A program made the position numbers and the translations under genes. Below, piece by piece: positions 23,774 through 39,726 of a DNA stretch of 64,000 nucleotides. Source of the stretch: a virus; the IMG/VR virus record IMGVR_UViG_3300018481_000020, positions 17,458 through 81,457 of that record; one strand, given 5' to 3'. Position 1 is the first letter of the stretch, and each line of letters starts with the position of its first letter. The notes below the pieces were generated by a model. That model did not search any database. It had not been told where the DNA came from and was given only the letters and a program-made list of their open reading frames with translations.

Positions 23774-24658
23774 ATGAGGAGTGCGTTCGGAGTCGAGCAT
23801 GTGGTGGCTGCGCCAGTCTCGAAGTCGCTCAGTGGCGGAGTCTTCAAGCCGGCCTCGAAGCTGAGCCAGGCTGAGCGCAAGACGGTGGGTGGCTACCGGA
23901 AGGCCAAGGGTGTCACCACCAGTGACGCGGAGTGGGCCAGGAACATGGGACAGGTCAAGCGACTCCACGACCAGCCCCATCCGGGAATGAGACACACCAA
24001 GACGGTGCACGGCAAGCAAGGAACCACTGAGCACTACAAGCACAACAGTCGCTCCACCGTGGTGCCACCGGGAGCTGAGGGGTTCCATGTCCGTACCGGG
24101 GGCAAGAAGGGCACCTCCTACATCCACATGAAGGACAGCGCTGGCAAGAGCGTGACCAGGCACGAGGTGGCCCACTCCACCCCGAAACGCACCAGCTACC
24201 GGATGAAGCAGATCGTCGACAACCCGAAGAAGACGATGGCCGAGGAGGGCCGGGCGGACTACGTCGCCTCGGGGCACTACCTGAAGAAGAAGCCCCAGAG
24301 TGGCTATGCCCAATCAGCTCGGTACCGCAACGCCGAGGCACGTGGGGAGAAGAGCGCGAAGAGTGCCCGGAAGTATGGTGGCAAGCCAGCGCGTGGTCTC
24401 ATGCGCGCAAGAAACGCACCATCTCGGTTCAAGGTGAAGCAAGCCAGTGGTTCGATGTCTCGAACGATGAACAAGCCAGTGGGTCGTCAGGAGATCGACG
24501 AGTACCGCCGGGTGCAGGACAAGATGCATGGCGGAGCTCCGAAGACTCCCGGGATGAGCACTCGCAAGAAGGTGGCCATCGGAGCCGGCACTACCGGTGT
24601 GGCCGGTGGCGGTACCTACGCTGTTTCGCGGAACAGGAAGAAGAGGTCGAATGGCTGA
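23774..24658 (+). CDS. SAFGVEH-leader basic protein with a zincin-like motif
   Basis: MRSAFGVEH...VSK; HEVAH...EEGRAD; C-terminal Gly-rich segment and basic tail. Confidence 0.7.
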   Translation: MRSAFGVEHVVAAPVSKSLSGGVFKPASKLSQAERKTVGGYRKAKGVTTSDAEWARNMGQVKRLHDQPHPGMRHTKTVHGKQGTTEHYKHNSRSTVVPPGAEGFHVRTGGKKGTSYIHMKDSAGKSVTRHEVAHSTPKRTSYRMKQIVDNPKKTMAEEGRADYVASGHYLKKKPQSGYAQSARYRNAEARGEKSAKSARKYGGKPARGLMRARNAPSRFKVKQASGSMSRTMNKPVGRQEIDEYRRVQDKMHGGAPKTPGMSTRKKVAIGAGTTGVAGGGTYAVSRNRKKRSNG

Positions 24659-26534
24659 CGTGCGGCTCCCTCAGGGCGACATCTCCACCTGGGACGAGGA
24701 CAACGCAGGGGACGAGGTTCCACAGCGCACCAAGCCCATGGACGAGCTGGGTGTCACCGGGGTCAAGCGTGTCTCTGGCTATGTCGATGAGGAGTTCTTG
24801 CCGGCGCTTCGGGGCCGCAAGGCGGTCCGGGTCTACCGGGAGATGTCTGCCAACGACTCCATGGTCGGTGCGCTGCTGTTCAGTATCGACAAGCTGCTGC
24901 GCGAGGTGGAGTGGAAGGTGCTCCCCGCCGAGCAGTCTGATGAGGGAGTAGCCGCCCAGGAGTTCCTGGAGTCCTGCATGGACGACATGAACGAGCCGTG
25001 GGATGGGTTCATCGGTGAGGTGCTCTCGATGATGACCTATGGCTGGAGCTGGCACGAGATCGTCTACAAGCGCCGGATCGGTCCCTGGGAGAAGGATCCC
25101 CGCAAGCGCAGCAAGTACCAGGACGGGCTGATCGGGTGGCGCAAGATGCCGATCCGGGCCCAGGAGACATTAATGCGCTGGTCCTTCGACGAGACCGGTG
25201 GGGTGAAGGCGATGATCCAGATGGCCCCGCCCCGGTACCAGACAACGGTGATCCCGATCGAGAAGTCGATCCTGTTCCGGACCGCGATCGCCAAGGGCAA
25301 CCCCGAAGGCGTCTCGCTGCTGCGTACCGCCTATCGCGCCTGGTACTTCAAGAAGCGTCTGGAGGAGTTCGAGGCGATCGGTGTCGAGCGCGACCTGGCC
25401 GGGATGCCGGTGGCCAAGGTGCCGGCGGACTACCTGACCGCAGCCAAGGGCACGCCCCAGGCCAAGACGGTGGATGCCTACCGGAAGATGGTCCGTGGGG
25501 TGCGGCGGGACGAGAACGAAGGACTGGTGCTCCCGAACCAGTACGACCCGGACACCAAGCAGCCACTGTTCGAGTTCGAGCTGATGAGCTCGGGAGGAAC
25601 CCGGCAGTTCGACACGAACTCGATCATCCAGCGCTACGAGCAGCGGATCCTGATGAGCGTGCTGGCCGACTTCATCCTGGTCGGGCACGAGTCAACCGGC
25701 TCCTACTCGTTGCACACTGACAAGACCGGGATCTTCCGGGCAGCCCTGAACTCCCTCGTCAAGTCCATCGCGGACACCTTGAACAGGTATGCAGTGCCTC
25801 GGCTATTCGCCCTGAACGGCTGGAAGCTCGACGAGCTGCCCAGGTTCGAGCCCACCAACGTGGACCCGCCCGATCTGACCCAGCTGGCCTCGTTCATCTC
25901 GGCCACCGCTGGTTCGGGGATGCAGTGGTTCCCGGACCCGGAGCTGGAGAAGTACGTGCGCGAGATCGCGCGCCTGCCGGAGATGACGGATGAGGATGTG
26001 GACTACAAGCGTCAGATGCGCCAGCAGGAGCAGGCGATGGAGTTCGCTGGCTCCCAGATGGAGCTGCTCGGGATGAAGCAGAAGGCCGAGATGACCGCTC
26101 AGGGATACACGCCGGAGCAGGCCGAGATGGCCGCTGCCTCACCGACACCGGAGATGGCTGCCCAGGAGGCTGAGCAGGCTCAGATGATGAACCAGCCGCC
26201 CCCGGAGGATCCGGCCGAGGGAGCTCGGCACAGCCGAGACCTGGAGCGGATGACCACCGAGGAGAAGATCGCGGAGAAGACCCATGCTCGGGAGAAGGAG
26301 AAGCTGCGGCTCCAGGACACCATGTCCAACCGAGACCACGGTAGGACCAAGGAGCAGATGCGCCTGAAGGACCGCTCGGCGGCCCAGAATGCGAAACTGA
26401 CCTCACAGACCCTGAAGGACAAGGCCAAGTACAGCCGGCCCAGCCAGGGACCTGCGAAGCCACCTGCAAAGAAGCCTCCTGCGAAGAAGTCCAACGTGGC
26501 CGCGAAGAAGCCACCACCGAAGAAGAAGAGGTAG
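24651..26534 (+). CDS. portal protein (Mu gp29/DUF935-like)
   Basis: YG.S.HEIVY, GNPEGVSLLR.AY.AW.FK, ERDLAGMP motifs; position after TerL. Confidence 0.9.
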   Translation: MADVRLPQGDISTWDEDNAGDEVPQRTKPMDELGVTGVKRVSGYVDEEFLPALRGRKAVRVYREMSANDSMVGALLFSIDKLLREVEWKVLPAEQSDEGVAAQEFLESCMDDMNEPWDGFIGEVLSMMTYGWSWHEIVYKRRIGPWEKDPRKRSKYQDGLIGWRKMPIRAQETLMRWSFDETGGVKAMIQMAPPRYQTTVIPIEKSILFRTAIAKGNPEGVSLLRTAYRAWYFKKRLEEFEAIGVERDLAGMPVAKVPADYLTAAKGTPQAKTVDAYRKMVRGVRRDENEGLVLPNQYDPDTKQPLFEFELMSSGGTRQFDTNSIIQRYEQRILMSVLADFILVGHESTGSYSLHTDKTGIFRAALNSLVKSIADTLNRYAVPRLFALNGWKLDELPRFEPTNVDPPDLTQLASFISATAGSGMQWFPDPELEKYVREIARLPEMTDEDVDYKRQMRQQEQAMEFAGSQMELLGMKQKAEMTAQGYTPEQAEMAAASPTPEMAAQEAEQAQMMNQPPPEDPAEGARHSRDLERMTTEEKIAEKTHAREKEKLRLQDTMSNRDHGRTKEQMRLKDRSAAQNAKLTSQTLKDKAKYSRPSQGPAKPPAKKPPAKKSNVAAKKPPPKKKR

Positions 26535-26536
26535 TC

Positions 26537-26806
26537 ATGTACAGCGCATTCGGTGTAGATCATGGAGTGGTATCCACGACGACAGTCTCCAAGGGCCTCA
26601 ACCCGTTCAAGGCGTTCGTGGGAGCGAAGAAGGCCAAGCCGGCGGCTCAGTTCAAGCCCGTCAATCCCGGAATCAATCCTGGGTTCGGAACTCGAAAGAT
26701 CGCTCCCGGTGGACCAGTGCAGCGTGGATCCAGTGGTGGCTCGAACGCCATGGAGGACCAGCGGAAGACCGCTCTAGCTGCGGTACAGAAGCCACGGAAG
26801 GTGTAG
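26537..26806 (+). CDS. SAFGVDH-leader small basic protein
   Basis: MYSAFGVDHGVVSTTTVSK. Confidence 0.7.
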   Translation: MYSAFGVDHGVVSTTTVSKGLNPFKAFVGAKKAKPAAQFKPVNPGINPGFGTRKIAPGGPVQRGSSGGSNAMEDQRKTALAAVQKPRKV

Positions 26807-26808
26807 CC

Positions 26809-29800: not shown

Positions 29801-30513
29801 ACAACGAGCGGGATGCCTACCGGGCCAGCCCGTTGCCCGGTGCGGTTGATATTGAGGTCAAGCGACTGGATGGTGAGGACACCTCACTGAAGTTCGGTCG
29901 ACCACTGTCCGCGCTCAACGGCCGTGAACTCCGCGAGGAGTTCGAGCTGTCCAAGAACGTGCGCGAGGCGATGAAGACTGCGAAGCTGCAGGGCACGGCA
30001 GCCCAGGACGCACTGGGCTCGCAGTTCCAGAACTCTGGATCTGCCTTCGCCAGCAACTTCTTCCGCGACGACGCTGGTGCCGCCAAGCACTTGGAGAACA
30101 TCCACCGGATGCACCACCTGAAGTCAAAGAGTGGTGGTGGAACCACGGGTGGCGGACCTGTCGGTGGAGTCGGTGGCTTCGGACGGCCCACTCCTCCCCG
30201 ACCTGGTGGACAAGCTCCTAGTGGAGCCAGGGTCCAACCTCCGCAAGGTGGTGGTGACAGTAGTGGTCGGTTCGTGGAGCTCGACCCAGACGACGAGAGG
30301 TTGGTCGAGGACGCTCGTCGGAAGTACCTGAAGGCTGCCGAGCAACTCATCTTGAATCCGGAGAGTCAAGAAGAACATGATGCGCTGTACATGTTCAAGG
30401 AAGGGATGAAGGGGTCTCATCCGGCGAAGGGATTCAATGAGCACACCAAGTGGCTCGAAGAGCTGCCTGACAAGACTCGGACGAAGCTATATGCGCAAGC
30501 GGGCTACTCGTGA
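26809..30513 (+). CDS. large multidomain head-associated / putative injected protein (1234 aa)
   Basis: Lies between portal and MuF; K motifs, KRDPSSGRF motif, degenerate JAB-like region. Confidence 0.65.
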   Translation: MPYTSDAQRKFMHAKHPEIAAKWDAEIRGKKKKIAKGWAKPIGIGVGASVLGGAAANQIPPVQKTEWYQERRRKKKKKGQIKKMLAPVSDDPFFNQEAAQKTFDLIMKMDDDTAAVFCYIVASDLLEREVEENRVTLQKHLDEVVAKRLTDLKKATLRAVSKGMENPQPYAQALAMIDSMISKADDDIPDWEFERKIKRDPSSGRFRTKFRSTPLKKPMPDKTAKTLGIAGITGDRYKNKMSPKEKARYQHQYLQIADFLGAVNAATDGDNETLVHFRNEATGETWAEKATSTKPMTTMLEENVWAVAAEAKPTTLSVGGAAFSLAGAAGKTMSADQVKAFNTAGEKSDEWKASWLTDDNGQNQNARLYQRTHTLGTVAQELGPDGSKVQLAGKMASIVGQYGPQAEEVLGPSARKTAYRYRGTERTPDERLIGMYSRAIDQNKRQGGLNPFEEQAENRIRTARGAKKQPFGSETGVRGKGSSRPMAQPGVTPAITQMVREREAAAGRAPDWRERELGRVAVQRYLMDELPSKKYYKLQLASGNTPPSEGVIINSEGQIVTQAVGYGDDHYLPFNLKNLKGLKGGEYIRNRSVGGLTAEDVYTGLISGARRVTVVSRSGTFTMEFKPDFRGGRRHNDKARRMTRRYEQVLDAVQSEQVERAPVPMRWRKMIEEEVKAEYGPTASPRLVRAEIDAREREFKANPQVNGRDMDRAEASISQFEEQQKRGLVSAQDVADYRKQIHSELRDLKEIHFRLNGVGYEAALDSLREQFPYYIDAQSHPTAENLEGEIQEHEMDMGYVEPGRNRPTSAQAGWFGTRKEESGKFSAAYSDYQRGLPGTPEPHGHPREKGKFKPTNVTSSTGSSGGGASVGLRSDRERTRDAAIEALQANQAKEGVISSAVALQQAVKVHKPPTGISTPEWWYHSEDQMREYLGNDANRKKFDTTVSQIGAADFDEAGASRPWQAYQTARKRTGGGKPYSPEHANTWPTEGPYKFTGDNERDAYRASPLPGAVDIEVKRLDGEDTSLKFGRPLSALNGRELREEFELSKNVREAMKTAKLQGTAAQDALGSQFQNSGSAFASNFFRDDAGAAKHLENIHRMHHLKSKSGGGTTGGGPVGGVGGFGRPTPPRPGGQAPSGARVQPPQGGGDSSGRFVELDPDDERLVEDARRKYLKAAEQLILNPESQEEHDALYMFKEGMKGSHPAKGFNEHTKWLEELPDKTRTKLYAQAGYS

Positions 30514-32528
30514 CCATTGCGCCGTTCGTCGAGCTCGGGTTCCACCCGACTGATCTGCGGCCTGGGGATCTGCCCAAGACCGGGGCATTCCTCGGATCCC
30601 CGGCCGAGGCGATGGAGGCCGCGCTGGCCATCGTCCGGGCTCGGATGGTCGACCAGATGCACGCCGAGATCAAGGGGATCGCACAACCCACTCAAGCCCA
30701 GCTGCTGACCATCATGGACCTGGCCTGGCAGGGCATCTTCCCGGCGTTCCGGAAGGTGTCCGCCCCGATGATGGCCGATGCCTATATCCGGGCATACCGC
30801 TCAGCTGATGCCGGTGACGTACCGCTGAGTGTGATCTACGCACTGGCTGACAAGCATGCGGAGAAGGTGGGGCTGTACTTCTACGGATCCTCCCGCGAGG
30901 CTATGGCCGAGGGGTTCAACACCCTGGTCAACCGGCGATTGCCGGCCAAGGCTGCTGCTGGGAAGTTGATGGATGCCTGGGGTCTGACTCCACGGCAGGT
31001 GCAGGCGTTCATTGCTTCCCAGCAGCTCGATACTCCAGTGAAGTCGGCGTCCCCATTCGCACTGAAGGCCAGGGCCCGGGCCTACATCGACCGAGCCTTC
31101 ACCTCCAGGGCCAAGAAGCTGAGTGCTCAGGAGGAGCACAACATCGAGGAGCAGGCGAAGCAGTACGCCTGGATGTGGCTCCAGGACAAGGGCCGGCTGT
31201 CGAAGAAGGCCCAAAAGATCTGGATCACCGCCAAGGACGAGAAGGTGTGCAAGGTCTGCGGTCCGCTGAACGGGAAGAAGGTCGGAGTCAATGAGCAGTT
31301 CCGCACCCCCAAGGGAGAGTTCTGGACTCCCGGTGTGCACCCGAACTGCCGCTGCTATATCCGGCTGATCGAGAACCGGTTCTCCAAGTCCGCCTTCGGG
31401 ATAGTCAGGAAGGACCTGGCCGGCACTGCCCTGGCGGAGTTCAACGAGCTGCACCCACGCACGGAGTCAGGTCGGTTCGGTACCAAGGCCCGGACCAAGA
31501 CCATCGATGTGGATGAGGAGTTCAAGCGGCTGGTGTCCCAGCCGAGCTTGATCAAGCCGGTACGACACCTCACCTACGCCGATGCCGAGCCTGATCCCGA
31601 GATCGACGAGCAGTTCTTCCAGCTGATCTCAGCCCAGCCGAAGCGGCGGGGGTTCACCTCGGTCTGGGGCAGCCCACTGGAGGTGAAGACCTTCCGGGAG
31701 GAGGCAAAAGCACAGATCGCTGATGTCGAGCCGATGATCAACTTCGCCGCTGACGTGGCGGTAGAACTAAGAGCCAAGTCCAGGCTGGAGACCAAGCCGA
31801 AGCAGCGGATGAAGACTCCGACCATCCCTGTCGGGCAGCCGGCGTTCGCCGTGATCCAGAACGAACTACTTGGAGACGGAGAGATCGACCGGATCCGTTT
31901 CAACCACGGCGTCACCTTCCATACCGACGCGATCGGCGCGGCCCAGGAGGCTGGCGAGCTGAAGAAGGAAATCGTCGATCGCAAGGTGGACGACATGATC
32001 GACCAGCTCGCTAAGGATCGTGGGCGGACGGTCAAGATGGAGGACCCGAAGACCGGGGAGATGCTCTACGCCAAGATGAGGCCCAAGGACATCGAGGCGA
32101 TTGCTGACTGGTACGGGCGGAGCGCTACCTCGCATCACCACGATGACTTCGATCCTGAAGACCTGGAAGATGAAGGTGCTCAGCTCGACTGGGGGGACCG
32201 GGAGGGGACTGTGGTCACTTGGTACAACGAGAAGGGCGAGGCCTGGGGAACAGACCAGATGTCCTATCGCCATCTAGGTCACACTTACTTTGCGCAACGA
32301 TCCTCGGACTACGAGGTCTATGTGGCCGGGATTGACCAGATTGCGACTGATAGTGAAGTGAACGACATCAGCGGTAGCGCGAACAGCAGGCACCGGGAGT
32401 TCAGTGTCGATGGCGACTACGTGCTCCGCCCGGAGACAGTGAAGCGGACCAAGGCTGATCACTTCTACGACGCCACCAGCTTCATGATGGACCCGGAGGG
32501 ATCCGTGGAACTGCCCAAGGACGAGTAG
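30510..32528 (+). CDS. MuF-like (SPP1 gp7) minor head protein with C-terminal extension
   Basis: KIWIT..DEKVCKVCGPLNG...HPNCRC, followed by ~380 aa acidic extension. Confidence 0.85.
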   Translation: MTIAPFVELGFHPTDLRPGDLPKTGAFLGSPAEAMEAALAIVRARMVDQMHAEIKGIAQPTQAQLLTIMDLAWQGIFPAFRKVSAPMMADAYIRAYRSADAGDVPLSVIYALADKHAEKVGLYFYGSSREAMAEGFNTLVNRRLPAKAAAGKLMDAWGLTPRQVQAFIASQQLDTPVKSASPFALKARARAYIDRAFTSRAKKLSAQEEHNIEEQAKQYAWMWLQDKGRLSKKAQKIWITAKDEKVCKVCGPLNGKKVGVNEQFRTPKGEFWTPGVHPNCRCYIRLIENRFSKSAFGIVRKDLAGTALAEFNELHPRTESGRFGTKARTKTIDVDEEFKRLVSQPSLIKPVRHLTYADAEPDPEIDEQFFQLISAQPKRRGFTSVWGSPLEVKTFREEAKAQIADVEPMINFAADVAVELRAKSRLETKPKQRMKTPTIPVGQPAFAVIQNELLGDGEIDRIRFNHGVTFHTDAIGAAQEAGELKKEIVDRKVDDMIDQLAKDRGRTVKMEDPKTGEMLYAKMRPKDIEAIADWYGRSATSHHHDDFDPEDLEDEGAQLDWGDREGTVVTWYNEKGEAWGTDQMSYRHLGHTYFAQRSSDYEVYVAGIDQIATDSEVNDISGSANSRHREFSVDGDYVLRPETVKRTKADHFYDATSFMMDPEGSVELPKDE

Positions 32529-32550
32529 CGCAGATGAGGACGATGGAGCT
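32523..32550 (+). promoter_or_regulatory. conserved late-promoter-like motif, copy 6
   Basis: GAGTAG-N10-GACGAT-N6-ATG. Confidence 0.6.
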
Positions 32551-33591
32551 ATGAGCACAGTGCATGAGCTGCTGGCCACCGACGACACGTTCCGTGAGGT
32601 GGCTGATCTGCTGTTCGGTGGGGGCGGGGACCAGCTGATCAGCAAGATGAACCCGGCCCAGTCCGATGTGGGTTCCCATGGCGGGATGTCGGATCAGAAG
32701 AAGCGGAAGATCACCGCCGGCCTGAGCGCAGTAGGTGCGGCTGCTGGTGGTGCTGGTCTGGCGCTCGGGGGACACAACGTCAGGCGTGGCTACAAGACCG
32801 CTCGTGGCCTGCAGAAGGCCGGCCAACTCGCTGGTGGGAAGAAGAAGGCACTCAAGACTGCCGTCAGTCACGAGAAGCTGGCCACTGGACTGGTTCCACT
32901 GGAGATAGCTGGTCTGACCGGTGAGATCGCGGCCACCAAGATCCTGCACGGGGACACCAAGAAGAAGCAAGGCTCATTGGTCAAGAAGAACCTGGGTGAA
33001 CTGCTCAACAACGCTTCAGACAAGGCACCGAGCAAGCGGAACGCTACCAAGGCTGTACTGGACCCGAACAAGCGGCGCAAGGGTCTGGAGTACACCAAGA
33101 AGACCGGAGGCGCGCTGCGCCGACTGCCGGACAAGGTGAAGACCACCAACGAGGTGAAGAAGTCAGAATCGCCCACAGACCAGGTCGAGGTGGTCTGGGA
33201 GGGCGAGATCGCCAAGGCGGACTCCGACAAGCAGCAACTCTTCGGCTGGGCCTCGGTGATCGAGGTCAACGGCGAGCCGGTGGTGGACCTGCAGGGTGAC
33301 TACATCTCCGCCGATGAGATGGAGAAGGCCGCCTACTCCTATGTGCAGAAGTCTCGCAAGGGCGGGGACATGCACCTGCGTGATGAGTGGGAGCCGATCC
33401 AGAAGTCGGAGATGATCGAGAGCTTCATCGTCACACCCGAGAAGCGTGAGGCCATGGGTCTGCCGGAATCGGTGCCCACCGGCTGGTGGGTGGGGTTCAA
33501 GGTCAACGACCCCGATGTCTGGTCCAAGGTGAAGTCGGGCGAGCGGACCGGGTTCTCGATCCACGGGCAGGGTCGGCGCACGCCGGCGTGA
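32551..33591 (+). CDS. capsid maturation protease (XkdF-like) with N-terminal extension
   Basis: FGWASV...DLQGD...EKAAY...H...ESF...WWVGFKV...VK.G..TGFSI.G. Confidence 0.85.
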   Translation: MSTVHELLATDDTFREVADLLFGGGGDQLISKMNPAQSDVGSHGGMSDQKKRKITAGLSAVGAAAGGAGLALGGHNVRRGYKTARGLQKAGQLAGGKKKALKTAVSHEKLATGLVPLEIAGLTGEIAATKILHGDTKKKQGSLVKKNLGELLNNASDKAPSKRNATKAVLDPNKRRKGLEYTKKTGGALRRLPDKVKTTNEVKKSESPTDQVEVVWEGEIAKADSDKQQLFGWASVIEVNGEPVVDLQGDYISADEMEKAAYSYVQKSRKGGDMHLRDEWEPIQKSEMIESFIVTPEKREAMGLPESVPTGWWVGFKVNDPDVWSKVKSGERTGFSIHGQGRRTPA

Positions 33592-33595
33592 TCCG

Positions 33596-34912
33596 ATGAT
33601 CAGCGCATTCGGCGTGGACCACGGGGGCGAGGTCTCGAAACTGGACGACCAGCAGAAGAAGCAAGCCGCTGCCGGTACCGCCGTAGGAGTCGGTGGGGCT
33701 GCGGCTGCCTCCCAGGTCCGGGTGCCCGAGCACTCGCACTACAACAAGAAGACCCGGGCCTACCTGCACACACTGCCAGCTGGGGTGCACGAGGTGGACA
33801 CCGCGATGCTGGGCAAGCGCCCCCGCAAGCTCGGAGCCAGGAAGCAGCAGACTCCGTACGTGGCCGCGATGGCTCAGGAACGTCCCGCGCCTTACTCGCC
33901 GGTGCCGATCACTCGATACAAAGGTGACAAGGGCGTCATCCAGCGTGACAACGCCCACTCGGTGATGGCAAACGCGATGAAGGGCAGGAAGACCACCATC
34001 AAGATCGAGGACTCTCCGCATCACCGTCCGGTTCGTCCCGCTGGTGAGGAAGCGGTCCGTCGACTCCAGGGCAGGTACCAGCAGCGCCGGCTGAGGCAGA
34101 ACACGAATCTGTCTGAGAAGAAGATCAACCAGCACGTGAAGGCATACAAGCCAAGCTCGCGGAAGGCCAACACCACTAAGCGCCCGCACGGTGTGATCGA
34201 GGATCAGATCAAGTCCAGTCGGCACAAGTACGGGGCCAAGGTGGCCTTGGGTCTGATTCGCAAGGATCAGCGACGCCGAGACACGGCCGCTGGAGCTGCC
34301 GGGGTGGCGGGCGGAGGCGTACTGGCCACCACCCCGGTTCGGCGCTCGGGAGCCAAGGTGAAGATCCACGAGACCAAGTCGGGACCAAGGATCAGGTCAG
34401 CCGAGGCCAAGAAGATCGTCAGTCCCGGCTACCGGCCAGGCAACCGACGGGCCATCCAGGGGATGGCACACAAGCTGCCGAAGAACGCTCAGGGCCCAAC
34501 CAAGGTGATCAGATACAAGGGCGGCCAGGTGATCCCCTGGGACGGCAACCACCGTGCCACCGCACGGATCGCGCGCGGGGACAAGTCCATCCCGGTCAAG
34601 GTGATCGAGGGTGGTGAGCGGCCAGCAGTCAGCGTCACCCGAAATGCCATCCATGTGGGACAACAGCGGGTGCACCAGCGTCGGATGAACCGTGGGGACT
34701 TCACATCTCTGGGCAAGCCGAGCAAGCCAGGCAAGGCCTACCACGCCATCGCCAACGCCTCTCCGACTCGATCCGGCCGCAAGGAGCTGACCACCGTCCG
34801 AGCTGCCTCCGGTCCGACCAAGGCAGCGCTGCGTACCAAGCAAGGTGCGACAGTTACCGCAGGAGCAGCTCTCCTGGGAACTGCTCACCACCTGAACCGG
34901 AAGAAGGACTGA
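33596..34912 (+). CDS. SAFGVDH-leader basic protein with tandem ParB/Srx-like modules
   Basis: MISAFGVDHGGEVSK; DGNHR..A....G...IPV.V plus a degenerate first copy. Confidence 0.7.
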   Translation: MISAFGVDHGGEVSKLDDQQKKQAAAGTAVGVGGAAAASQVRVPEHSHYNKKTRAYLHTLPAGVHEVDTAMLGKRPRKLGARKQQTPYVAAMAQERPAPYSPVPITRYKGDKGVIQRDNAHSVMANAMKGRKTTIKIEDSPHHRPVRPAGEEAVRRLQGRYQQRRLRQNTNLSEKKINQHVKAYKPSSRKANTTKRPHGVIEDQIKSSRHKYGAKVALGLIRKDQRRRDTAAGAAGVAGGGVLATTPVRRSGAKVKIHETKSGPRIRSAEAKKIVSPGYRPGNRRAIQGMAHKLPKNAQGPTKVIRYKGGQVIPWDGNHRATARIARGDKSIPVKVIEGGERPAVSVTRNAIHVGQQRVHQRRMNRGDFTSLGKPSKPGKAYHAIANASPTRSGRKELTTVRAASGPTKAALRTKQGATVTAGAALLGTAHHLNRKKD

Positions 34913-34913
34913 G

Positions 34914-35804
34914 ATGGCGCGAGCAATGAGCGACACCGAGATCAGGCATCGCAAGAAGCTCCAGGCCGGGGCCTCCCAGGCTGGCGGCGTGCTCGGACTG
35001 ACTGCGCTCGGCGGCACCATGGTGGCCAGCAGGGGCGGTCGGAACACCCTGCGCAAGATCCCACAGCTGAAGTCGCGACTGGCTGCCCCGCCGCCCAAGG
35101 ACCCGAACCGGGACCGGATCAAGGGCGCGGTCACCCCAGTGCTGGCCACCGGGGCTGGTATCGGTGGAGCCTCGGCGTTCAACTTCGCCTCCTATACCCG
35201 CGCGGAGTCCAAGAAGCGACAGAAGCCAGCGGTGGTCGGCCAACCACCGTCACGGATCAAGAAGAGAGAGGACGAGCCGATGGAGATGGGCTACTACGGT
35301 GAGGTCGGCCGTCCCGTCCGACTCACCGAGATCGAGGTGCCAGTCAGCAAGGCCTGGCAGCCATCGGCCGGGAACTTCGACTCCGAGACCGCTCGGAAGA
35401 AGCGGACCAAGGGATACCAGGGCGCTGCCCTGGTCGGGGCGGGTGCCGGTGGTGCCTATGCCGGACATCACGGGATGAAGGCCGCACACGCGGCTGGCAA
35501 GATCAAGCCAGTCTCGATGGGCCTCATGGAGACCAGGACGGTTGACGCCCATGGGACCACCCGCCGGGTGCCGAAGGTGGCCGGCAGAAGGGGTTCCAAG
35601 AAGGCGCACGTGATCGAGGAGAAGGCGATCCCGACGAAGGCGCTGAAGGCTGCTGGCAAGCATGGTGGTCGAACTGCCCTTGGAGTGGGTGCGGTGGCCG
35701 CTGCTGCCGGCACTCATCGGGCGCTGAAGCGCAAGGAGAAGGGCTCCTGGCAGCCATATGCGAAGCGTGACTCGGCCAGCGCGTTCGGAATCAACCACGC
35801 ATGA
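34914..35804 (+). CDS. basic Gly/Ala-rich protein with C-terminal SAFGINH motif
   Basis: Four GA-rich hydrophobic segments; internal PVSK/A; ends SASAFGINHA. Confidence 0.65.
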   Translation: MARAMSDTEIRHRKKLQAGASQAGGVLGLTALGGTMVASRGGRNTLRKIPQLKSRLAAPPPKDPNRDRIKGAVTPVLATGAGIGGASAFNFASYTRAESKKRQKPAVVGQPPSRIKKREDEPMEMGYYGEVGRPVRLTEIEVPVSKAWQPSAGNFDSETARKKRTKGYQGAALVGAGAGGAYAGHHGMKAAHAAGKIKPVSMGLMETRTVDAHGTTRRVPKVAGRRGSKKAHVIEEKAIPTKALKAAGKHGGRTALGVGAVAAAAGTHRALKRKEKGSWQPYAKRDSASAFGINHA

Positions 35805-35832
35805 GTGGACAGCACCGTGAGACTGAGAACTA
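35803..35832 (+). promoter_or_regulatory. conserved late-promoter-like motif, copy 7
   Basis: GAGTGG-N10-GAGACT-G upstream of the scaffold/capsid genes. Confidence 0.55.
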
Positions 35833-35844
35833 GAGGTAGATGAA

Positions 35845-36675
35845 ATGCCACGTCCAAGGATGAACTTGACCGACATGGATATCGATGAGATCTCCACGGT
35901 CGACAAGGCAGCGAACCAGCTCTCGCGGTTCGTCATCGCGAAGAGGGCTCCCGAGGAGGATGAGATGCCCAAGCTTTTCAACCAGGAGGGACAGCCCCTC
36001 GATGAGCAGGACCTTGAGTTCGGTGATGTTGTGTTCGACGACCAGGGCAATGCCTATGAGTACGTCGAAGACGGCGACACCGAAGAGTACGAAGTGCACG
36101 AAGAAGAGTCTCAGCCAGAGCTTGCCGGAGTCGGCAAGCGGGCACCGGAACAGTCCGCCTTCTTCGAGAACAAGCCTCAGCAGGGCTCGTTCACTGCATC
36201 GGTGATGGAGGAGCTCTCCAAGGCGTTCTCCGATGAGGATCGCGACCAGGTGATCGCCAAGGCGCTGGGTCGGGTCGAGCAGATCGAGTCCCAGTTCAGT
36301 GAGGTCGCCAAGGCGGCCCAGGCTGAGCGCGACCTTCGGCTCACTCGGGAGTACATCTCCAAGGCCGCCGAGTACAACCTCCCGGTCGACGCAGCTGAGC
36401 TTGGTCCGGTGCTCTACCGGATGGCCGAGCAGATGAGCTATGACGACTGCTCGGTGATCGCCAAGTGCCTGGAGACGGCCGGCGAGATCATCTACGAAGA
36501 GGTCGGCTACCAGGGTGGCGGCGACAACGCCGATGTCTACTCCCAGGTCGCGCAGCACGCCTACGACACATTCGGCAAGGCCGAGGACTTCACTGAGGTC
36601 ACGGCCATCAACAAGGTGTTCGACGACAACCCGGATGCCTACGACGAGTACCTGGCCGCGCAGCGGAACCAGTAG
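35845..36675 (+). CDS. scaffolding protein
   Basis: Acidic, helical; EISTVDKAAN motif; position upstream of capsid genes. Confidence 0.75.
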   Translation: MPRPRMNLTDMDIDEISTVDKAANQLSRFVIAKRAPEEDEMPKLFNQEGQPLDEQDLEFGDVVFDDQGNAYEYVEDGDTEEYEVHEEESQPELAGVGKRAPEQSAFFENKPQQGSFTASVMEELSKAFSDEDRDQVIAKALGRVEQIESQFSEVAKAAQAERDLRLTREYISKAAEYNLPVDAAELGPVLYRMAEQMSYDDCSVIAKCLETAGEIIYEEVGYQGGGDNADVYSQVAQHAYDTFGKAEDFTEVTAINKVFDDNPDAYDEYLAAQRNQ

Positions 36676-36693
36676 GAAAGGTAGGGAAGCTCG

Positions 36694-37098
36694 ATGGCAT
36701 ACGAAGAGAGCCTCAGATCCATCACGCTGAACGCGGATGCGTCTCTGGGCATCTACACGGGCGTGCCGGGCCAGCCGGGCTCCCCCGATCCTCACGGAGC
36801 GAAGCAGTATCACTTCGTGAAGGTGACTGGGGTCCACCAGGTAGGTCTCGCCGACGCTGCCGCCACTACGGTGGTCGGGGTGCTGCAGAACAAGCCTCAA
36901 GGTCCAGGCCAGGCTGCCACGGTCGGCTACCACGGAGTGACCAAGGTCGTCTCCGACGTGGCGCTCACCGCTGGTGACCCGATCAAGGTCAGTGCCGATG
37001 GCCAAGCCGCGAAGACCGGAGCTGGTCCCACTGTCGGGATCGCGCTCAACACCACTGCTACCGCTGGAGAACTCGCCGTTGTTCTCCTGACGATCTGA
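36694..37098 (+). CDS. capsid cement/decoration protein
   Basis: GVLQNKP..G.AATV...G..KV...GD...DG.A...GIAL pattern. Confidence 0.8.
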   Translation: MAYEESLRSITLNADASLGIYTGVPGQPGSPDPHGAKQYHFVKVTGVHQVGLADAAATTVVGVLQNKPQGPGQAATVGYHGVTKVVSDVALTAGDPIKVSADGQAAKTGAGPTVGIALNTTATAGELAVVLLTI

Positions 37099-37111
37099 GA
37101 GGAGTCAAGAC

Positions 37112-38110
37112 ATGCCGAACCCCACTCAGAGCGATCTCCACGTCAACGTTCCGCTGACCAACGTCAGCGTCGCGTACATGCAGGACAAGGCGACGTTCAT
37201 CGCGGACAAGGTGTTCCCGAGAGTTCCGGTCAACAAGCAGAGCGACCTGTACTGGAAGTACTCGAAGTCCGATTGGCGTCGTACCGACGCGCAGAAGCGT
37301 GCGCCCGGTACCGAGACTGCTGGTGTTGGCTGGAAGGTCGACACGGGGCAGTACTTCGCCGAGGTCTGGGGTGTCCACAAGGACATCGACGACCAGGTGC
37401 GGGCCAACGCCGACAGCAACTGGCGGCTGGACTCGGACGCCACCACCTTCGTCACGAACCAGCTCCTGCTGCGCCGTGACCTGGACTGGAACGACAAGTT
37501 CTTCAAGACCGGCCAGTGGGGTACCGACCTCGCCGGAGTCACCGGGACTGTAGGTGCTGGTCAGTTCCTGCAGTGGAGCGACCCGAACTCAGACCCGATC
37601 GTGCAGTTCTCGGACTTGCAGACCAACTTCGTGGAGCAGTCTGGTCGCAAGGCCAACACGATGGTCCTCGGAGCGCGAGCGATCACCCAGCTGAAGAACC
37701 ACCCGGACATCATTGACCGGATCAAGTACACCCAGCGTGGTGTGGTGACCACCGATCTGCTCGCCAGCCTGTTCGATGTCGAGCGGATCCTGGTCAGCTA
37801 CGCGACGGTGACCGACGTGGCCGAGATCAACGACGCCAAGGCTCAGGACGCTGCGGCGACGTACCGGTTCATGTCCAACTCCAAGTCGGCGCTGCTCTGC
37901 TACACCCCGAGCTCGCCGTCGCTGATGACGCCGGCCGCTGGCTATTGCTTCACCTGGAACGGATACCTGGCTGGCAACAAGTTCGGGATCCGGATCAAGA
38001 ACTTCCGGATGGAGCCGATCGCTGCGGACCGCATCGAGGGAGAAATGACCTACGACATGCGCGTCGTGGCGCGGGACATGGGCATCTTCCTGTCCAACGC
38101 TGTGGCCTGA
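37112..38110 (+). CDS. major capsid protein
   Basis: LTNVSVAY...FIADKVFP.VPV..QSD.Y; WSD..SDP; strong codon bias; followed by a terminator. Confidence 0.9.
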   Translation: MPNPTQSDLHVNVPLTNVSVAYMQDKATFIADKVFPRVPVNKQSDLYWKYSKSDWRRTDAQKRAPGTETAGVGWKVDTGQYFAEVWGVHKDIDDQVRANADSNWRLDSDATTFVTNQLLLRRDLDWNDKFFKTGQWGTDLAGVTGTVGAGQFLQWSDPNSDPIVQFSDLQTNFVEQSGRKANTMVLGARAITQLKNHPDIIDRIKYTQRGVVTTDLLASLFDVERILVSYATVTDVAEINDAKAQDAAATYRFMSNSKSALLCYTPSSPSLMTPAAGYCFTWNGYLAGNKFGIRIKNFRMEPIAADRIEGEMTYDMRVVARDMGIFLSNAVA

Positions 38111-38121
38111 TCACACGATCT

Positions 38122-38160
38122 GAGGTGGGCTGTGGGTTAACCTCCTGCAGCCCATCTTTC
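38122..38160 (+). terminator. intrinsic terminator after the capsid gene
   Basis: GAGGTGGGCTGTGGG / CCTGCAGCCCATCTT stem with a short T tail. Confidence 0.65.
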
Positions 38161-38174
38161 AATAGGAGCCAAGG

Positions 38175-38507
38175 ATGGAATCAGCGTTCGGTGTAGACCA
38201 CGGAGAGATCTCCACGACGACAGTCTCCAAGTTCGCATCCACTCTCGTTGCTGGTGGCGCTGGTGGTGTTGCTGGATCCAAGCGAGCCAAGAAGAAGTAC
38301 AAGAGTCAGGCGGCAACTTCGGGAATGCTGCGTACTGCAGGTGGCGAGCTCGCTGGCCAGACGGTTGGCGGTCTAGCTGGATTGGCTGCTGCTCGGGGTC
38401 GGCCAACTGGGATCCTGGCTGGCGGCGCAGCTGGCAGTGTCGGGGGCGGCGTCCTCGGCAACGCATCAGCACGCGGGAAGGCCAAGCGCGAGGGGTGGAC
38501 GAAGTAG
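38175..38507 (+). CDS. SAFGVDH-leader glycine-zipper-like protein
   Basis: MESAFGVDHGEISTTTVSK; GxxxG-rich segments. Confidence 0.7.
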   Translation: MESAFGVDHGEISTTTVSKFASTLVAGGAGGVAGSKRAKKKYKSQAATSGMLRTAGGELAGQTVGGLAGLAAARGRPTGILAGGAAGSVGGGVLGNASARGKAKREGWTK

Positions 38508-39032
38508 ATGCCCAGTCAACTGCTCGCCAACGACAAGATCTCCTTCGTGGTCTGCAAGCCGTTCACCTCGCGCGGCAAGGACTACCAGACAGGTGACGAC
38601 TTCCCGCAGGAGGAAGCCCGAGACATCGAGGTGTTCGTCCGAGCCCGGTTCGTGATCCCGGTGGTCGACGACATCGAGGACAAGAAGTTCATCCGGCACT
38701 GGCACAAGGAGATCCGCCCCAAGGACGAGGTGCTGGCCCGGCTGTTCCATGACCGGGTCCAGCTGCGGATGCACCACGAGCCGGACTCCGAAGAGGTGGT
38801 CAGCATCGAGAAGCTGGTCCGTCCGAACTCTCCGGACGTGCCAGACGACGATGGTCAGCCCGAGCTGCCCTTCGATGAGCCCGCCGTGGCGGCCCACAAG
38901 GACCAGTACGACCCCAGCTACCACACGGTGGTCGAGGTCAACGAGTACCTGGCTGTCCATCCAGAGGAGCGAGAGCGCATTCTCGAAGATGAGCGCGGCG
39001 GCAAGAACCGCAAGGGAATCTTGGAGGTGTGA
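38508..39032 (+). CDS. head-associated protein
   Basis: Position; C-terminal DP...TV.EV..YL....ERIL..E..GKNRKGIL motif. Confidence 0.6.
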   Translation: MPSQLLANDKISFVVCKPFTSRGKDYQTGDDFPQEEARDIEVFVRARFVIPVVDDIEDKKFIRHWHKEIRPKDEVLARLFHDRVQLRMHHEPDSEEVVSIEKLVRPNSPDVPDDDGQPELPFDEPAVAAHKDQYDPSYHTVVEVNEYLAVHPEERERILEDERGGKNRKGILEV

Positions 39033-39385
39033 TGACGACCAGTGCATTCGGAGTCGACCACGGCTTCGAGGATGTTGAGAAGGCTTTCGGCATGGGCGGC
39101 GGTGGCGCGTTGGGCGGTGGCCTGCGCAAGCTCGGTCAGAACATCGGGATGGGCGCGCGCAAGGGTGCGGCCGGAGCCGGCAAGATGGCCCGGCCCAACG
39201 TCGGTGCGGGCGGGGCTCGTGGAGTTCTGGGTAGGGGCCAGGTTCAGGCCGGTCGTGGTCTGAAGCAGGCTAGTAACTTCGCCATGAAGCGGCCCGGACT
39301 CACTGGCGGGCTCGCCGCCGGCGGTACAGCTGGTGCCGTCGGTGGCGGTGGGTACGCCATGGGGAACCGCCGTAGGCAGTACTGA
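39032..39385 (+). CDS. SAFGVDH-leader Gly-rich cationic protein
   Basis: MTTSAFGVDHGFEDVEK/AFG. Confidence 0.7.
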   Translation: MTTSAFGVDHGFEDVEKAFGMGGGGALGGGLRKLGQNIGMGARKGAAGAGKMARPNVGAGGARGVLGRGQVQAGRGLKQASNFAMKRPGLTGGLAAGGTAGAVGGGGYAMGNRRRQY

Positions 39386-39726
39386 TGTACAGCGCGTTCG
39401 GGGTCGACCATGGAGACATCTCCAAGGGCCTCAAGCTGAGCTGGGCCAAGCGACCCAGGAAGCTGACCCGTGCCCAGATACGCACTCAGGGCCAGGGCAC
39501 TGGCAAGGGCACCCGGACCGAAGCCGTCACCAGGAAGCTGAAGAACGCCACCGAGACTCCCGTCTCGATCGCCGGCACGGGTCGCGCTGCTGGTCGAGGT
39601 ATCACTGGAACTGGCGCGTTCATGCAGAACCACCCTGGGGTCACCGGCTCCGCTCTGGTGGGAGGGGGCGGAGCAGCCGCGTATCACCACCTGAAGCAGA
39701 AGGAACCGAAGCGGAGGTCATCCTGA
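39385..39726 (+). CDS. SAFGVDH-leader cationic protein
   Basis: MYSAFGVDHGDISK/G. Confidence 0.7.
   Translation: MYSAFGVDHGDISKGLKLSWAKRPRKLTRAQIRTQGQGTGKGTRTEAVTRKLKNATETPVSIAGTGRAAGRGITGTGAFMQNHPGVTGSALVGGGGAAAYHHLKQKEPKRRSS

What the first reader, a model, noticed from the sequence alone, without database searches (positions are those of the whole stretch)
23774..39726. Family of head-module proteins sharing a SAFGV[DE]H...[VI][SE]K leader: candidate capsid cargo-targeting system
Seen: six ORFs scattered among the portal, protease, capsid and neck genes begin with the same peptide: MRSAFGVEHVVAAPVSK (23774), MYSAFGVDHGVVSTTTVSK (26537), MISAFGVDHGGEVSK (33596), MESAFGVDHGEISTTTVSK (38175), MTTSAFGVDHGFEDVEK (39032) and MYSAFGVDHGDISK (39385). 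A seventh ends in SAFGINHA (35804), and MuF has a weaker internal SK/SAFGI. After the leader the sequences are unrelated (89-438 aa), strongly K/R-rich, and carry different cargo. The motif is conserved as protein despite synonymous DNA changes (AGC/AGT/TCA GCG/GCA TTC GGN GTN), so it acts as a peptide. Established: T4 internal proteins are packaged through a short N-terminal capsid-targeting sequence that the prohead protease removes. Inference: this is an analogous addressing tag plus cleavage site that loads a modular set of internal or ejected proteins into the prohead. I do not recognise it as described for actinophage siphoviruses.
Basis: partly seen in the sequence, partly recalled or inferred. 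Interest (0 to 1): 0.92.

Follow-up and report, generated by a model that had tools for sequence, protein, structure and literature searches.

The report
Shared cleavable tag on phage proteins
A large group of uncultured phages puts the same short peptide on hundreds of otherwise different small, positively charged proteins encoded among the head and neck genes; it is most likely a removable address-and-cutting tag for proteins carried inside the capsid, but no experiment has tested this.

Summary
Six + strand ORFs start M-x(1-2)-SAFGV[DE]H, a seventh ends in SAFGINHA, and MuF has FSK-SAFGI. Shuffles gave 0 matches.

The tag is widespread. It heads at least 562 protein clusters (50% identity) in public metagenomes. 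It occurs up to 6 times per stretch in one uncultured clade of roughly 80-kb siphovirus-like phages. None of 185,579 bacterial species genomes showed more than a single chance-level match. I found no cultured phage or paper with it.

Consensus: M-x-S-A-[F/W]-G-[VI]-[DE]-H-G-x(0-5)-[IVF]-[SEA]-K. It sits at N-termini (83%), C-termini and polyprotein junctions. A hydrophobic-x-Lys site always lies between tag and body. The scaffold (VGK-SAFF) and the XkdF protease's own leader carry related motifs.

The tagged proteins are all basic, and half have a Gly/Ala-rich segment. A few look enzyme-like: HExxH, ParB/Srx-like and GNAT.

Best reading (about 0.5): a propeptide tag for head-internal proteins, cut off by the prohead protease. 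This is a T4-CTS-like logic in an unrelated head system. Targeting, cleavage and packaging are all inferred.

The scan has noted analogous shared-leader systems in other phages, but not this motif.

The parts
23774..24658 (+). Tagged protein L1 (294 aa). The tag is 23774-23824 (MRSAFGVEHVVAAPVSK). The body is basic (pI 10.9), has a conserved HExxH...EExRAD motif and a C-terminal Gly/Ala-rich segment followed by a basic tail.
   Evidence: HExxH is invariant in 6 of 6 aligned homologues. Atlas structural neighbours are M48, M56 and M78 peptidases at TM 0.30-0.39, a lead only. No Pfam or PHROG hit.
26537..26806 (+). Tagged protein L2 (89 aa, pI 10.9), directly after the portal gene. The tag is 26537-26593.
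   Evidence: The slot between the portal and the 1234-aa gene holds tagged ORFs 14 times in relatives.
33596..34912 (+). Tagged protein L3 (438 aa, pI 11.3), directly after the protease gene. The tag is 33596-33640. It contains two repeats, the second with a DGNHR motif.
   Evidence: The AF2 model has low confidence (mean pLDDT 46). The top Foldseek PDB matches are almost all sulfiredoxin, ParB, Noc, KorB or SbnI; the best E-value is 5e-3 with probability 0.99. No Pfam, PHROG or PDB sequence hit.
34914..35804 (+). Conserved basic protein (296 aa, pI 11.0) with a C-terminal tag (SAFGINHA, 35778-35801) preceded by YAK-RD.
   Evidence: Homologues occur in 23 of 117 stretches. The C-terminal W.PYAKRD..SAFG[VI]DH motif is conserved in relatives.
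38175..38507 (+). Tagged protein L4 (110 aa, pI 10.8), directly after the major capsid gene. The tag is 38175-38231.
   Evidence: The slot between the capsid gene and the 174-aa gene holds tagged ORFs 25 times in relatives.
39032..39385 (+). Tagged protein L5 (117 aa from the ATG at 39032, pI 11.7). The tag is 39032-39082. It has a Gly/Ala-rich C-terminal segment followed by RRRQY.
   Evidence: Homologues occur in 16 stretches. It lies in the most used slot, counted 71 times.
39385..39726 (+). Tagged protein L6 (113 aa, pI 11.5). The tag is 39385-39426.
   Evidence: Homologues occur in 32 stretches.
32551..33591 (+). Prohead protease (346 aa). The XkdF (Peptidase_S78_2) domain spans aa 219-343. 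The N-terminal part carries a tag-like leader (aa 11-32, nt 32581-32646: ..FREVADLLFGGGGDQLISK) and then a basic, Gly/Ala-rich helical region.
   Evidence: Pfam E-value 4.5e-22, 78.8 bits against a cut-off of 24. The leader is conserved in the alignment of 94 homologues, with K32 invariant. In the W-tag sublineage it reads ..LLYGDGAWE[IV]SK. In the AF2 model the domain and helices 50-130 are confident while the leader has pLDDT 44-65.
35845..36675 (+). Acidic scaffold-like protein (276 aa, pI 4.1) with a conserved Lys followed by the SAFF motif (nt 36130-36165). Most relatives read VGK-SAFF.
   Evidence: K98 is invariant in 24 of 24 sequences, and SAFF directly follows K in 18 of the 20 SAFG-lineage rows.
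30510..32528 (+). MuF-family protein (672 aa) with FSK-SAFGI (nt 31380-31403) directly after the MuF domain.
   Evidence: Pfam PF04233, E-value 7.6e-8. The SAFGI part is absent from the 2 relatives I could align, so it is weak.
37112..38110 (+). Major capsid protein (332 aa). It is given for context and as one candidate receptor.
   Evidence: PHROG 1005, E-value 7e-89. It is up to 96% identical in relatives while neighbouring genes are 40-80% identical.
24597..26534 (+). Mu-type portal protein (645 aa) with a Lys/Pro-rich C-terminal tail. It is given for context.
   Evidence: Pfam PF06074, E-value 7e-35.

Best explanation
The peptide M-x-S-A-[F/W]-G-[VI]-[DE]-H-G...[IVF]-[SEA]-K is a propeptide tag of a phage clade with a Mu-type portal, an XkdF-type prohead protease and a separate acidic scaffold. 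It marks a variable, fast-evolving set of small, very basic proteins as components of the prohead interior. The invariant core (SAFGV[DE]HG) is proposed to be a docking element for a conserved head component: the protease, the capsid shell interior or the scaffold core. The hydrophobic-x-Lys site that always lies between core and body is proposed to be where the prohead protease cuts the tag off during maturation, as it cuts the scaffold at VGK-SAFF and itself at ..ISK. The released basic proteins would stay with the DNA and probably leave with it at infection. Shown here: the motif, its distribution, its position classes, its flanking Lys sites, its gene context, and the properties of the bodies. 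Inferred by analogy: docking, cleavage, presence in virions and ejection.
For: Reality and selection on the peptide:
- 6 matches in the window against 0 in 100 shuffles.
- All synonymous codons are used, including both Ser codon families. Upstream there is only a ribosome-binding-site-like G-rich patch.

Breadth:
- 562 of 1.84 billion cluster representatives match the tag profile at E<=0.001.

Context:
- 101 of 117 stretches carry at least one core structural gene of the window's module.
- 237 tagged ORFs sit in a few recurring slots between conserved head and neck genes.

Shared tag on dissimilar bodies:
- 167 unique proteins fall into 83 BLASTP families.
- Only 6 of 325 family pairs are linked at 90% hhalign probability or more.

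Cleavage-site-like architecture:
- Lys at the end of the tag is present in at least 90% of 125 aligned tags.
- The commonest endings are ISK (57), VSK (51) and IEK (17) of 167.
- In the 19 C-terminal tags a Lys lies 1-8 residues before the core.
- At polyprotein junctions the core is bracketed by Lys on both sides, as in ..IGK-SAFGVEHEVEK-...

Related motifs in proteins that head proteases usually process:
- The scaffold carries VGK-SAFF.
- The protease N-terminus carries a tag-like leader.
- The window's MuF carries FSK-SAFGI.

Properties of the bodies:
- 167 of 167 have pI above 9 (median 10.9), whereas the scaffold has pI 4.1.
Against: No experiment or proteome exists for any member, because all sequences are metagenomic.

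Every tag-bearing locus belongs to one lineage. Linkage of the tag to the protease or capsid type therefore cannot be separated from shared ancestry.

The spacing between core and Lys varies from 2 to 7 residues, once 11, and the order is reversed in C-terminal tags. The core therefore cannot occupy fixed protease subsites.

Tagged genes also lie between neck genes and next to a 2424-aa non-head gene: 15 times before that gene and 3 times after the tape-measure gene.

5 of 14 divergent relatives with the same head genes show no tag in the stretch held, so the system is dispensable for head assembly.

Most bodies are low-complexity, so 'unrelated cargo' may partly reflect fast drift of one paralogous family. 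Families 0, 2, 9, 10, 13 and 18 are linked.

The MuF motif is not conserved in 2 of 2 aligned relatives.
Confidence: 0.5

Rival explanations
1. The tag is only a processing module, with no targeting role. It acts as a spacer or propeptide that the prohead protease recognises and removes. This would free units of polyproteins or activate proteins only inside the head. Incorporation would depend on the bodies themselves: electrostatic co-assembly of basic proteins with the acidic scaffold, or bundling of Gly/Ala-rich helices with the similar region in the protease.
For: Polyproteins carry 2-4 internal tags bracketed by Lys (P0052, P0054, P0057, P0140). A fused L3-plus-296-aa-protein form occurs in L163. 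The scaffold and the protease carry related sites. All bodies are basic and the scaffold is acidic. 88 of 167 bodies have a Gly/Ala-rich uncharged segment, as does the protease N-part.
Against: A cleavage site alone does not need an invariant 7-8-residue core at a variable distance and in either order relative to the Lys. 79 of 167 bodies lack the Gly/Ala-rich segment. The protease N-part shows no profile similarity to any of 26 body families; the best hhalign probability is 5.6%.
Confidence: 0.25
2. The tag is a docking peptide for another virion site or an assembly factor, such as the portal, the neck, the 174-aa acidic protein or the giant 1234-aa protein. On this reading the tagged proteins are minor structural or ejection proteins placed there, not general capsid-lumen cargo.
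For: The most used slots lie between the capsid gene and the neck genes: 71, 25, 25 and 15 of 237. Tagged genes also flank the portal: 16 before it and 14 after it.
Against: Nothing singles out one partner. The 174-aa protein seemed absent by tblastn from 13 of 13 loci that appeared tag-less. At least the four of those loci that I inspected have a positional acidic equivalent, and 9 of 14 such loci carry variant tags. Copy-limited sites such as the portal sit poorly with 6 or more different tagged proteins per genome.
Confidence: 0.1
3. The proteins are not virion components. The tag would serve another process in the infected cell: recognition by a host protease or chaperone, secretion, membrane insertion, or release of a small signalling peptide.
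For: The Gly/Ala-rich segments match glycine-zipper membrane families weakly. Gly-zipper_YMGG matched 2 of 90 proteins; Gly-zipper_Omp, Romo1 and C19orf12 matched 1 each. The excised tag would be a conserved peptide of 11-19 aa.
Against: The N-terminal motif was not found in the 185,579 species genomes beyond 3 single matches that lack the Lys site, about the number I estimated for chance. There is therefore no host protein family or prophage with it. The tag has no signal-peptide-like hydrophobic region (sequence). The genes sit inside the structural operon on the same strand. Basic residues lie on both sides of the Gly/Ala segment, which fits a membrane-spanning topology poorly.
Confidence: 0.08
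4. The conservation acts at the DNA or RNA level, as a recombination boundary for shuffling gene cassettes or as a translation-initiation element.
For: The tag marks the 5' ends of genes in hypervariable slots.
Against: Third positions are free and Ser switches between AGY and TCN. The motif also works at C-termini and inside proteins. Upstream DNA shows only a generic ribosome-binding site.
Confidence: 0.02

Closest known systems
Capsid targeting sequence (CTS) of phage T4 internal proteins IPI-III and Alt, removed by the prohead protease gp21
   Same: A short conserved N-terminal peptide is the only thing shared by a diverse, fast-evolving set of basic proteins. It takes them into the scaffolding core and hence into the head (passages of PMC3012670). 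The genes lie in variable regions, and the tag is followed by a protease site (the latter from my own recall).
   Different: The head system is unrelated: a Mu-type portal, an XkdF/S78_2 protease and a different capsid family. The sequence is different. The proposed cut is after Lys, whereas I recall T4 cutting after Glu. The tag also occurs at C-termini and at polyprotein junctions. There are 6-7 per genome here, and at least 562 distinct clusters overall.
Propeptides of head and ejection proteins in giant phages (phiKZ, SPN3US), cut by the prohead protease
   Same: Many head proteins that are packaged with the genome and ejected are processed by one essential prohead protease (abstracts of PMC10052503 and PMC7411985, seen in the listings).
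   Different: I recall that those propeptides share only a short cleavage motif and not a long invariant tag. They belong to T4-like protease systems in myoviruses of more than 200 kb. This case is a siphovirus-like genome of about 81 kb.
Cargo-loading (targeting) peptides of encapsulins
   Same: Short terminal peptides direct otherwise unrelated cargo into an HK97-fold shell (abstract of PMC7355545, listing). Their use at either terminus is from my recall. The tag here is likewise independent of position.
   Different: I recall that encapsulin peptides are not removed by a protease and bind the shell protein directly. Binding to the capsid protein is untested here, and the motif is different.
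Shared N-terminal processing motif of Staphylococcus phage 80alpha capsid and scaffold proteins, cut by the host protease Prp (recalled, not looked up)
   Same: Several head proteins begin with the same short peptide, which is cut off at a fixed site.
   Different: That motif copies a host ribosomal-protein leader and uses a host enzyme. No host counterpart of the present motif was found in 185,579 species genomes, and the phage encodes its own protease.

Membership tests
T4-type CTS / internal-protein system | One short conserved terminal peptide shared by otherwise dissimilar proteins | tested here: met
   S, A, F, G and H are invariant in 125 aligned tags. The bodies fall into 83 BLASTP families among 167 proteins. 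6 of 325 family pairs are linked.
T4-type CTS / internal-protein system | Tag followed by a consensus site for the prohead protease | tested here: inconclusive
   A conserved [IVF]-[SEA]-K follows the tag. Similar x-K sites occur in the scaffold and in the protease leader. Cleavage itself cannot be tested here.
T4-type CTS / internal-protein system | T4-type head genes (gp21-family protease, gp20 portal, gp23 capsid) | tested here: not met
   The protease is Peptidase_S78_2 (XkdF) and the portal is Portal_Mu. The capsid is PHROG 1005. This is a functional analogue, not a member.
T4-type CTS / internal-protein system | Tag is necessary and sufficient for packaging into the prohead, and the proteins are present in virions | not testable with these tools
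   All members are uncultured. No proteome was found.
Encapsulin cargo-loading peptide | Short peptide at either terminus of the cargo | tested here: met
   Of 220 distinct occurrences, 182 are N-terminal, 6 are probably N-terminal, 19 are C-terminal and 13 are internal or lie behind a longer N-terminal pre-sequence.
Encapsulin cargo-loading peptide | Peptide binds the luminal face of the HK97-fold shell protein | not testable with these tools
   No usable prediction was obtained (see Tried and rejected). This needs structure determination or binding assays.
Encapsulin cargo-loading peptide | Cellular, non-viral compartment with no protease and no DNA packaging | tested here: not met
   This is a phage head module with a portal, MuF, a protease and a tape measure.
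XkdF-type prohead protease (Pfam PF14550, Peptidase_S78_2) | Match to the family model above the curated cut-off | tested here: met
   78.8 bits against a cut-off of 24, covering aa 219-343. All 120 homologues listed carry PF14550.
ParB/Srx fold (for tagged protein L3, 33596-34912) | Fold similarity and a DGxHR-type motif | tested here: inconclusive
   DGNHR is conserved in 7 of the 7 homologues that cover it. The Foldseek top hits are sulfiredoxin, ParB and Noc, but the best E-value is only 5e-3 and the model's mean pLDDT is 46. No Pfam or PDB sequence hit.
Zincin-like metallopeptidase (for tagged protein L1, 23774-24658) | HExxH plus a downstream acidic ligand, and a zincin fold | tested here: inconclusive
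   HExxH is invariant in 6 of 6 homologues and a downstream EExRAD block is present. Atlas structural neighbours are M48, M56 and M78 at TM 0.30-0.39 only. No Pfam, PHROG or PDB sequence hit.

The most novel reading that the evidence does not exclude
SAFGV[DE]HG is a position-independent cargo-loading peptide that docks on a conserved surface of the prohead interior, as encapsulin targeting peptides do on their HK97-fold shells. A Lys-specific XkdF protease then releases the cargo. With it, a large uncultured phage clade loads and injects a rapidly exchanging arsenal. That arsenal includes DNA-coating polycations, glycine-zipper proteins and enzymes (a zincin-like peptidase, a ParB/Srx-like protein and a GNAT acetyltransferase). 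The 12-19-residue tag could be reused to load foreign proteins into capsids.
Probability: 0.22. Interest if true: 0.8.

Novelty: new variant of a known kind. Interest (0 to 1): 0.62.

Why it matters
Capsid-targeting tags have been worked out experimentally mainly in T4 and its relatives. This would be an independent, sequence-defined example in a siphovirus-like head with a different portal, protease and capsid protein. It is unusually well resolved by natural variation, with hundreds of bodies, three positions, two aromatic variants and polyprotein forms.

It makes several questions directly testable:
- How small phages load internal or ejected proteins.
- What an XkdF-type protease cuts.
- Whether HK97-fold phage shells use encapsulin-like peptide docking.

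It also flags a large pool of hypervariable, probably injected proteins in an abundant uncultured clade. The capsid gene has 3,621 clusters at 90% identity. The tag could become a compact tool for protein packaging.

Tried and rejected
Complex prediction. I sent the capsid protein (A5), the protease domain (A4, residues 205-346) and the 32-aa tag (A1) as partner. The answer was 'no answer' (score 0.00, controls not run). It counts neither for nor against binding.

Cis-docking test. In the AF2 model of the whole protease, its own leader has pLDDT 44-65, so nothing can be said about docking.

Homology of the protease N-part to tagged bodies. The best hhalign probability was 5.6%, so this was rejected.

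The 174-aa acidic protein as tag partner. It was missing by tblastn from 13 of 13 loci that seemed tag-less. At least four of those loci have a positional acidic equivalent, and 9 of 14 such loci have variant tags. The correlation was dropped.

Alternative shared leaders in those loci, sought by shared 5-mers. Only noise was found. The variant tag was then found by reading the ORFs.

Database searches without result:
- PDB sequence searches for L3 and L1 gave 0 hits.
- PADLOC on 90 long tagged proteins gave 0 families.
- Pfam on the ten longest tagged proteins of the loci gave 0 families.
- Megablast of 7.6 kb of the head module against cultured phages gave no match.
- The nearest cultured capsid relatives, Kovu and ValentiniPuff, lack the motif in the 33 kb fetched for each.
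- No cultured phage matches the protease N-part: 0 of 45 records cover 80% or more of the query.

Literature. A full-text search for four 7-letter forms of the motif found 0 papers. A search for XkdF found 78 papers, and none of the 12 listed is on cleavage specificity. Supplementary files were not consulted, and none bears on a claim made here.

I did not pursue host identification. 'Actinophage' stays unverified.

Full report
OBSERVATION. No other SAFGxxH is found in any frame of the window. The back-translated pattern matches 6 times in the window and never in 100 dinucleotide-preserving shuffles. It matches 6 times forward, 0 reverse and 0 in the control in the complete 81,457-bp virus record that holds the window. 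Pfam confirms a Mu-type portal, MuF and an XkdF-type (Peptidase_S78_2) protease. PHROG confirms the major capsid protein. Downstream lie DUF6093 and HK97-gp10-like neck genes and a 1980-aa tape-measure-like gene, so the phage is siphovirus-like.

DISTRIBUTION. These held 187 matches. All but two (L044, L078) read M-x-SAFGV[DE]H.

The stretches belong to one lineage. 101 of 117 carry at least one core structural gene of the window's module, with capsid proteins up to 96% identical. 9 stretches had no hit at all.

A profile of the first 32 residues of 125 tags found 562 cluster representatives (50% identity) at E<=0.001 among 1.84 billion. A word-indexed search found 42 proteins at E<=0.01. All were metagenomic, and none had a name other than 'hypothetical protein' or a Pfam domain.

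The same pattern extended by Gly found only 3 single matches in one genome each of 185,579 prokaryote species. That is about the number I estimated for chance. None has the Lys site. I therefore see no prophages and no host protein family with this N-terminus.

Cultured phages gave no near-DNA match. The closest cultured capsid relatives (47% and 42% identity) lack the motif in the 33 kb fetched. No paper holds the motif.

UNBIASED SAMPLE AND A VARIANT. Anchoring on the capsid gene instead of the tag gave 562 IMG/VR stretches, of which the best 80 were kept. Of the 61 with at least 3 kb downstream of the capsid gene, 47 carry an SAFG-type tag. The 14 without all have capsid proteins only 66-71% identical to the window's.

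Reading their ORFs showed a variant tag with Trp: MISVWGVDHGSTVSK, MTTSYWGVEHGDTVSK and MISYWGIDHGDEISK. 9 of the 14 have such a variant and 5 have none in the stretch held. A scan for the Trp form found 26 stretches. Some lie in contigs that also carry Phe tags, so both forms work in one phage.

ANATOMY OF THE TAG. In 167 unique full-length tagged proteins S, A, F, G and H are invariant. The next positions are V (145) or I (22), then D (98) or E (66), then G (137). A hydrophobic-x-Lys follows 2-7 residues after the His: ISK 57, VSK 51, IEK 17.

Selection acts on the peptide. Ser uses AGY 109 times and TCN 51 times in 160 distinct tags, and every Ala, Gly and Val codon occurs. Upstream DNA shows only a G-rich ribosome-binding patch.

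The tag is not bound to the N-terminus. Of 220 distinct occurrences, 182 are N-terminal, 6 probably so, 19 C-terminal and 13 classed as internal. Most of the 13 sit behind a slightly longer N-terminal pre-sequence, and 3 are truly internal. In C-terminal tags a Lys lies 1-8 residues before the core, as in ..PVSK-SAFGVEHGV* or ..YAKRD..SAFGVDH..*. The family of the window's 296-aa protein keeps this C-terminal form.

The representative library holds polyproteins with 2-4 tags in which each core is bracketed by Lys, as in ..IGK-SAFGVEHEVEK-.. (P0052, P0054, P0057, P0140). In one relative the L3-type and 296-aa-type proteins are fused through such a junction.

GENE CONTEXT. With a slightly broader pattern, 237 tagged ORFs fall into recurring slots of a conserved gene order.

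| Slot | Count |
|---|---|
| 174-aa gene to 167-aa gene | 71 |
| capsid gene to 174-aa gene | 25 |
| DUF6093 gene to gp10-like gene | 25 |
| before the portal gene | 16 |
| 167-aa gene to DUF6093 gene | 15 |
| before the 2424-aa gene | 15 |
| portal gene to 1234-aa gene | 14 |
| after the protease gene | 3 |

The number and identity of tagged genes differ between close relatives, while the capsid protein stays 90-96% identical.

THE BODIES. All 167 have pI above 9 (median 10.9). The untagged conserved proteins are acidic or neutral: scaffold 4.1, the 174-aa protein 5.0 and the capsid protein 6.0. 88 of 167 have an uncharged 16-residue window with at least 9 Gly or Ala. It usually lies near the C-terminus (median relative position 0.8) and is followed by basic residues.

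BLASTP groups the bodies into 83 families, 57 of them singletons. Profile comparison links only 6 of 325 pairs among the 26 multi-member families at 90% or more.

Pfam on 90 long tagged proteins found one GNAT (L106:1758-2162, 27.1 bits against a cut-off of 20.7), a few weak glycine-zipper matches and nothing else.

Two window proteins show signs of a fold. L1 and its five homologues keep HExxH plus an EExRAD block. Atlas structural neighbours are M48, M56 and M78 peptidases, but at TM 0.30-0.39 only. L3 has two repeats, the second with DGNHR. A low-confidence model (mean pLDDT 46) finds sulfiredoxin, ParB and Noc as its top Foldseek matches, with a best E-value of 5e-3. I treat both as leads.

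RELATED MOTIFS IN CORE HEAD PROTEINS. The protease has a conserved N-terminal leader..FREVADLLFGGGGD.LI.K, with the Lys invariant in 94 sequences. In the Trp-tag sublineage it reads ..LLYGDGAWE[IV]SK. A basic, Gly/Ala-rich region follows, which AF2 models as confident helices (pLDDT up to 92), and then the XkdF domain. The acidic scaffold has an invariant Lys followed in most relatives directly by SAFF (VGK-SAFF). The Trp sublineage has [GA]K-SF..PF. The window's MuF has FSK-SAFGI, but 2 of 2 aligned relatives lack the SAFGI part.

MECHANISM. The simplest account has two functional parts.
- The invariant core is a docking element for a conserved partner.
- The hydrophobic-x-Lys site is where the XkdF protease separates tag and body. 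It always lies on the body side of the core, whichever end the tag is on.

The same kind of site in the scaffold and in the protease's own leader fits a protease that cuts after Lys in [IVMF]-x-K. Prohead proteases generally degrade the scaffold and trim themselves (general knowledge). The basic bodies, made late from the structural operon, would co-assemble with the acidic scaffold core. They would be freed by the protease, remain with the DNA and probably be ejected.

The motif architecture, context and composition are shown. Docking, cutting, packaging and ejection are inferred by analogy with T4. [quoted passage not shown]

RIVALS. There are four.
- The tag is only a processing spacer, and incorporation depends on the bodies.
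- The tag docks to another virion site.
- The proteins have a non-virion role.
- Conservation acts at the DNA level.

The codon data exclude the last. The absence of the motif from cellular genomes and the operon position weigh against the third. The first two cannot be separated from the main reading with the tools at hand. I therefore looked for linked genes. The protease is the only recognisable enzyme of the conserved head module. Because all loci are one lineage, linkage cannot be told apart from ancestry.

COMPARISON AND NOVELTY. Functionally this is closest to the T4 capsid targeting sequence and to the protease-processed head proteins of giant phages. It is not a member of those systems, because the head genes are of other families. 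It differs in sequence, in the proposed cut after Lys, in being independent of position, and in its use at polyprotein junctions. Position independence recalls encapsulin targeting peptides (PMC7355545, abstract only).

The scan has reported analogous shared-leader systems in other phages. I rate it a new variant of a known kind. It is well supported as an observation and untested as a mechanism.

The one complex prediction gave no answer. The host is unknown.

Noticed in passing
window 26809-30513 (+): A 1234-aa protein lies between the portal and MuF genes. It has no Pfam or PHROG match. Its N-terminus has a Gly/Ala-rich segment followed by a run of Arg/Lys (..RRRKKKKKG). It is conserved at 36-45% identity in relatives. 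It may be a giant internal or ejection protein.
   Followed up: partly
window 7406-14680 (+): A 2424-aa acidic protein whose only match is a sub-threshold collagen-repeat hit. In relatives, tagged ORFs often lie directly upstream of it (15 times).
   Followed up: partly
window 21239-23740 (+): An 833-aa protein with a DUF4082 domain and a long array of about 20 near-repeats (..ATSTLT..V R.PQA..). It lies just before the first tagged gene and the portal gene.
   Followed up: no
window 37112-38110 (+) and loci L129-L199: The major capsid protein is 90-96% identical across contigs whose neighbouring head genes are only 40-80% identical. It is under unusually strong constraint, or is exchanged as a unit.
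   Followed up: partly
window 24597-26534 (+), C-terminal ~60 aa: The portal protein ends in a long Lys/Pro/Ala-rich tail (..PAKPPAKKPPAKK..KKPPPKKKR). This is another highly basic element that would face the packaged DNA.
   Followed up: no
window 31659-31670 (MuF aa 384-387): The MuF C-terminal extension contains ..GFTSVWGSPLEV.., which resembles the Trp form of the tag core (S-V-W-G) but lacks the Asp-His.
   Followed up: no
L035:7251-10193 and L110: A contig with lower GC content and no detectable homologue of the window's head genes carries three tagged ORFs in a row (156, 164 and about 627 aa). The tag may therefore reach beyond the lineage defined by the capsid gene.
   Followed up: partly
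window 17003-17536 (+): A Peptidase_M15_4 (D-Ala-D-Ala carboxypeptidase-like) protein, probably the endolysin. It could help to guess the host cell-wall type.
   Followed up: no
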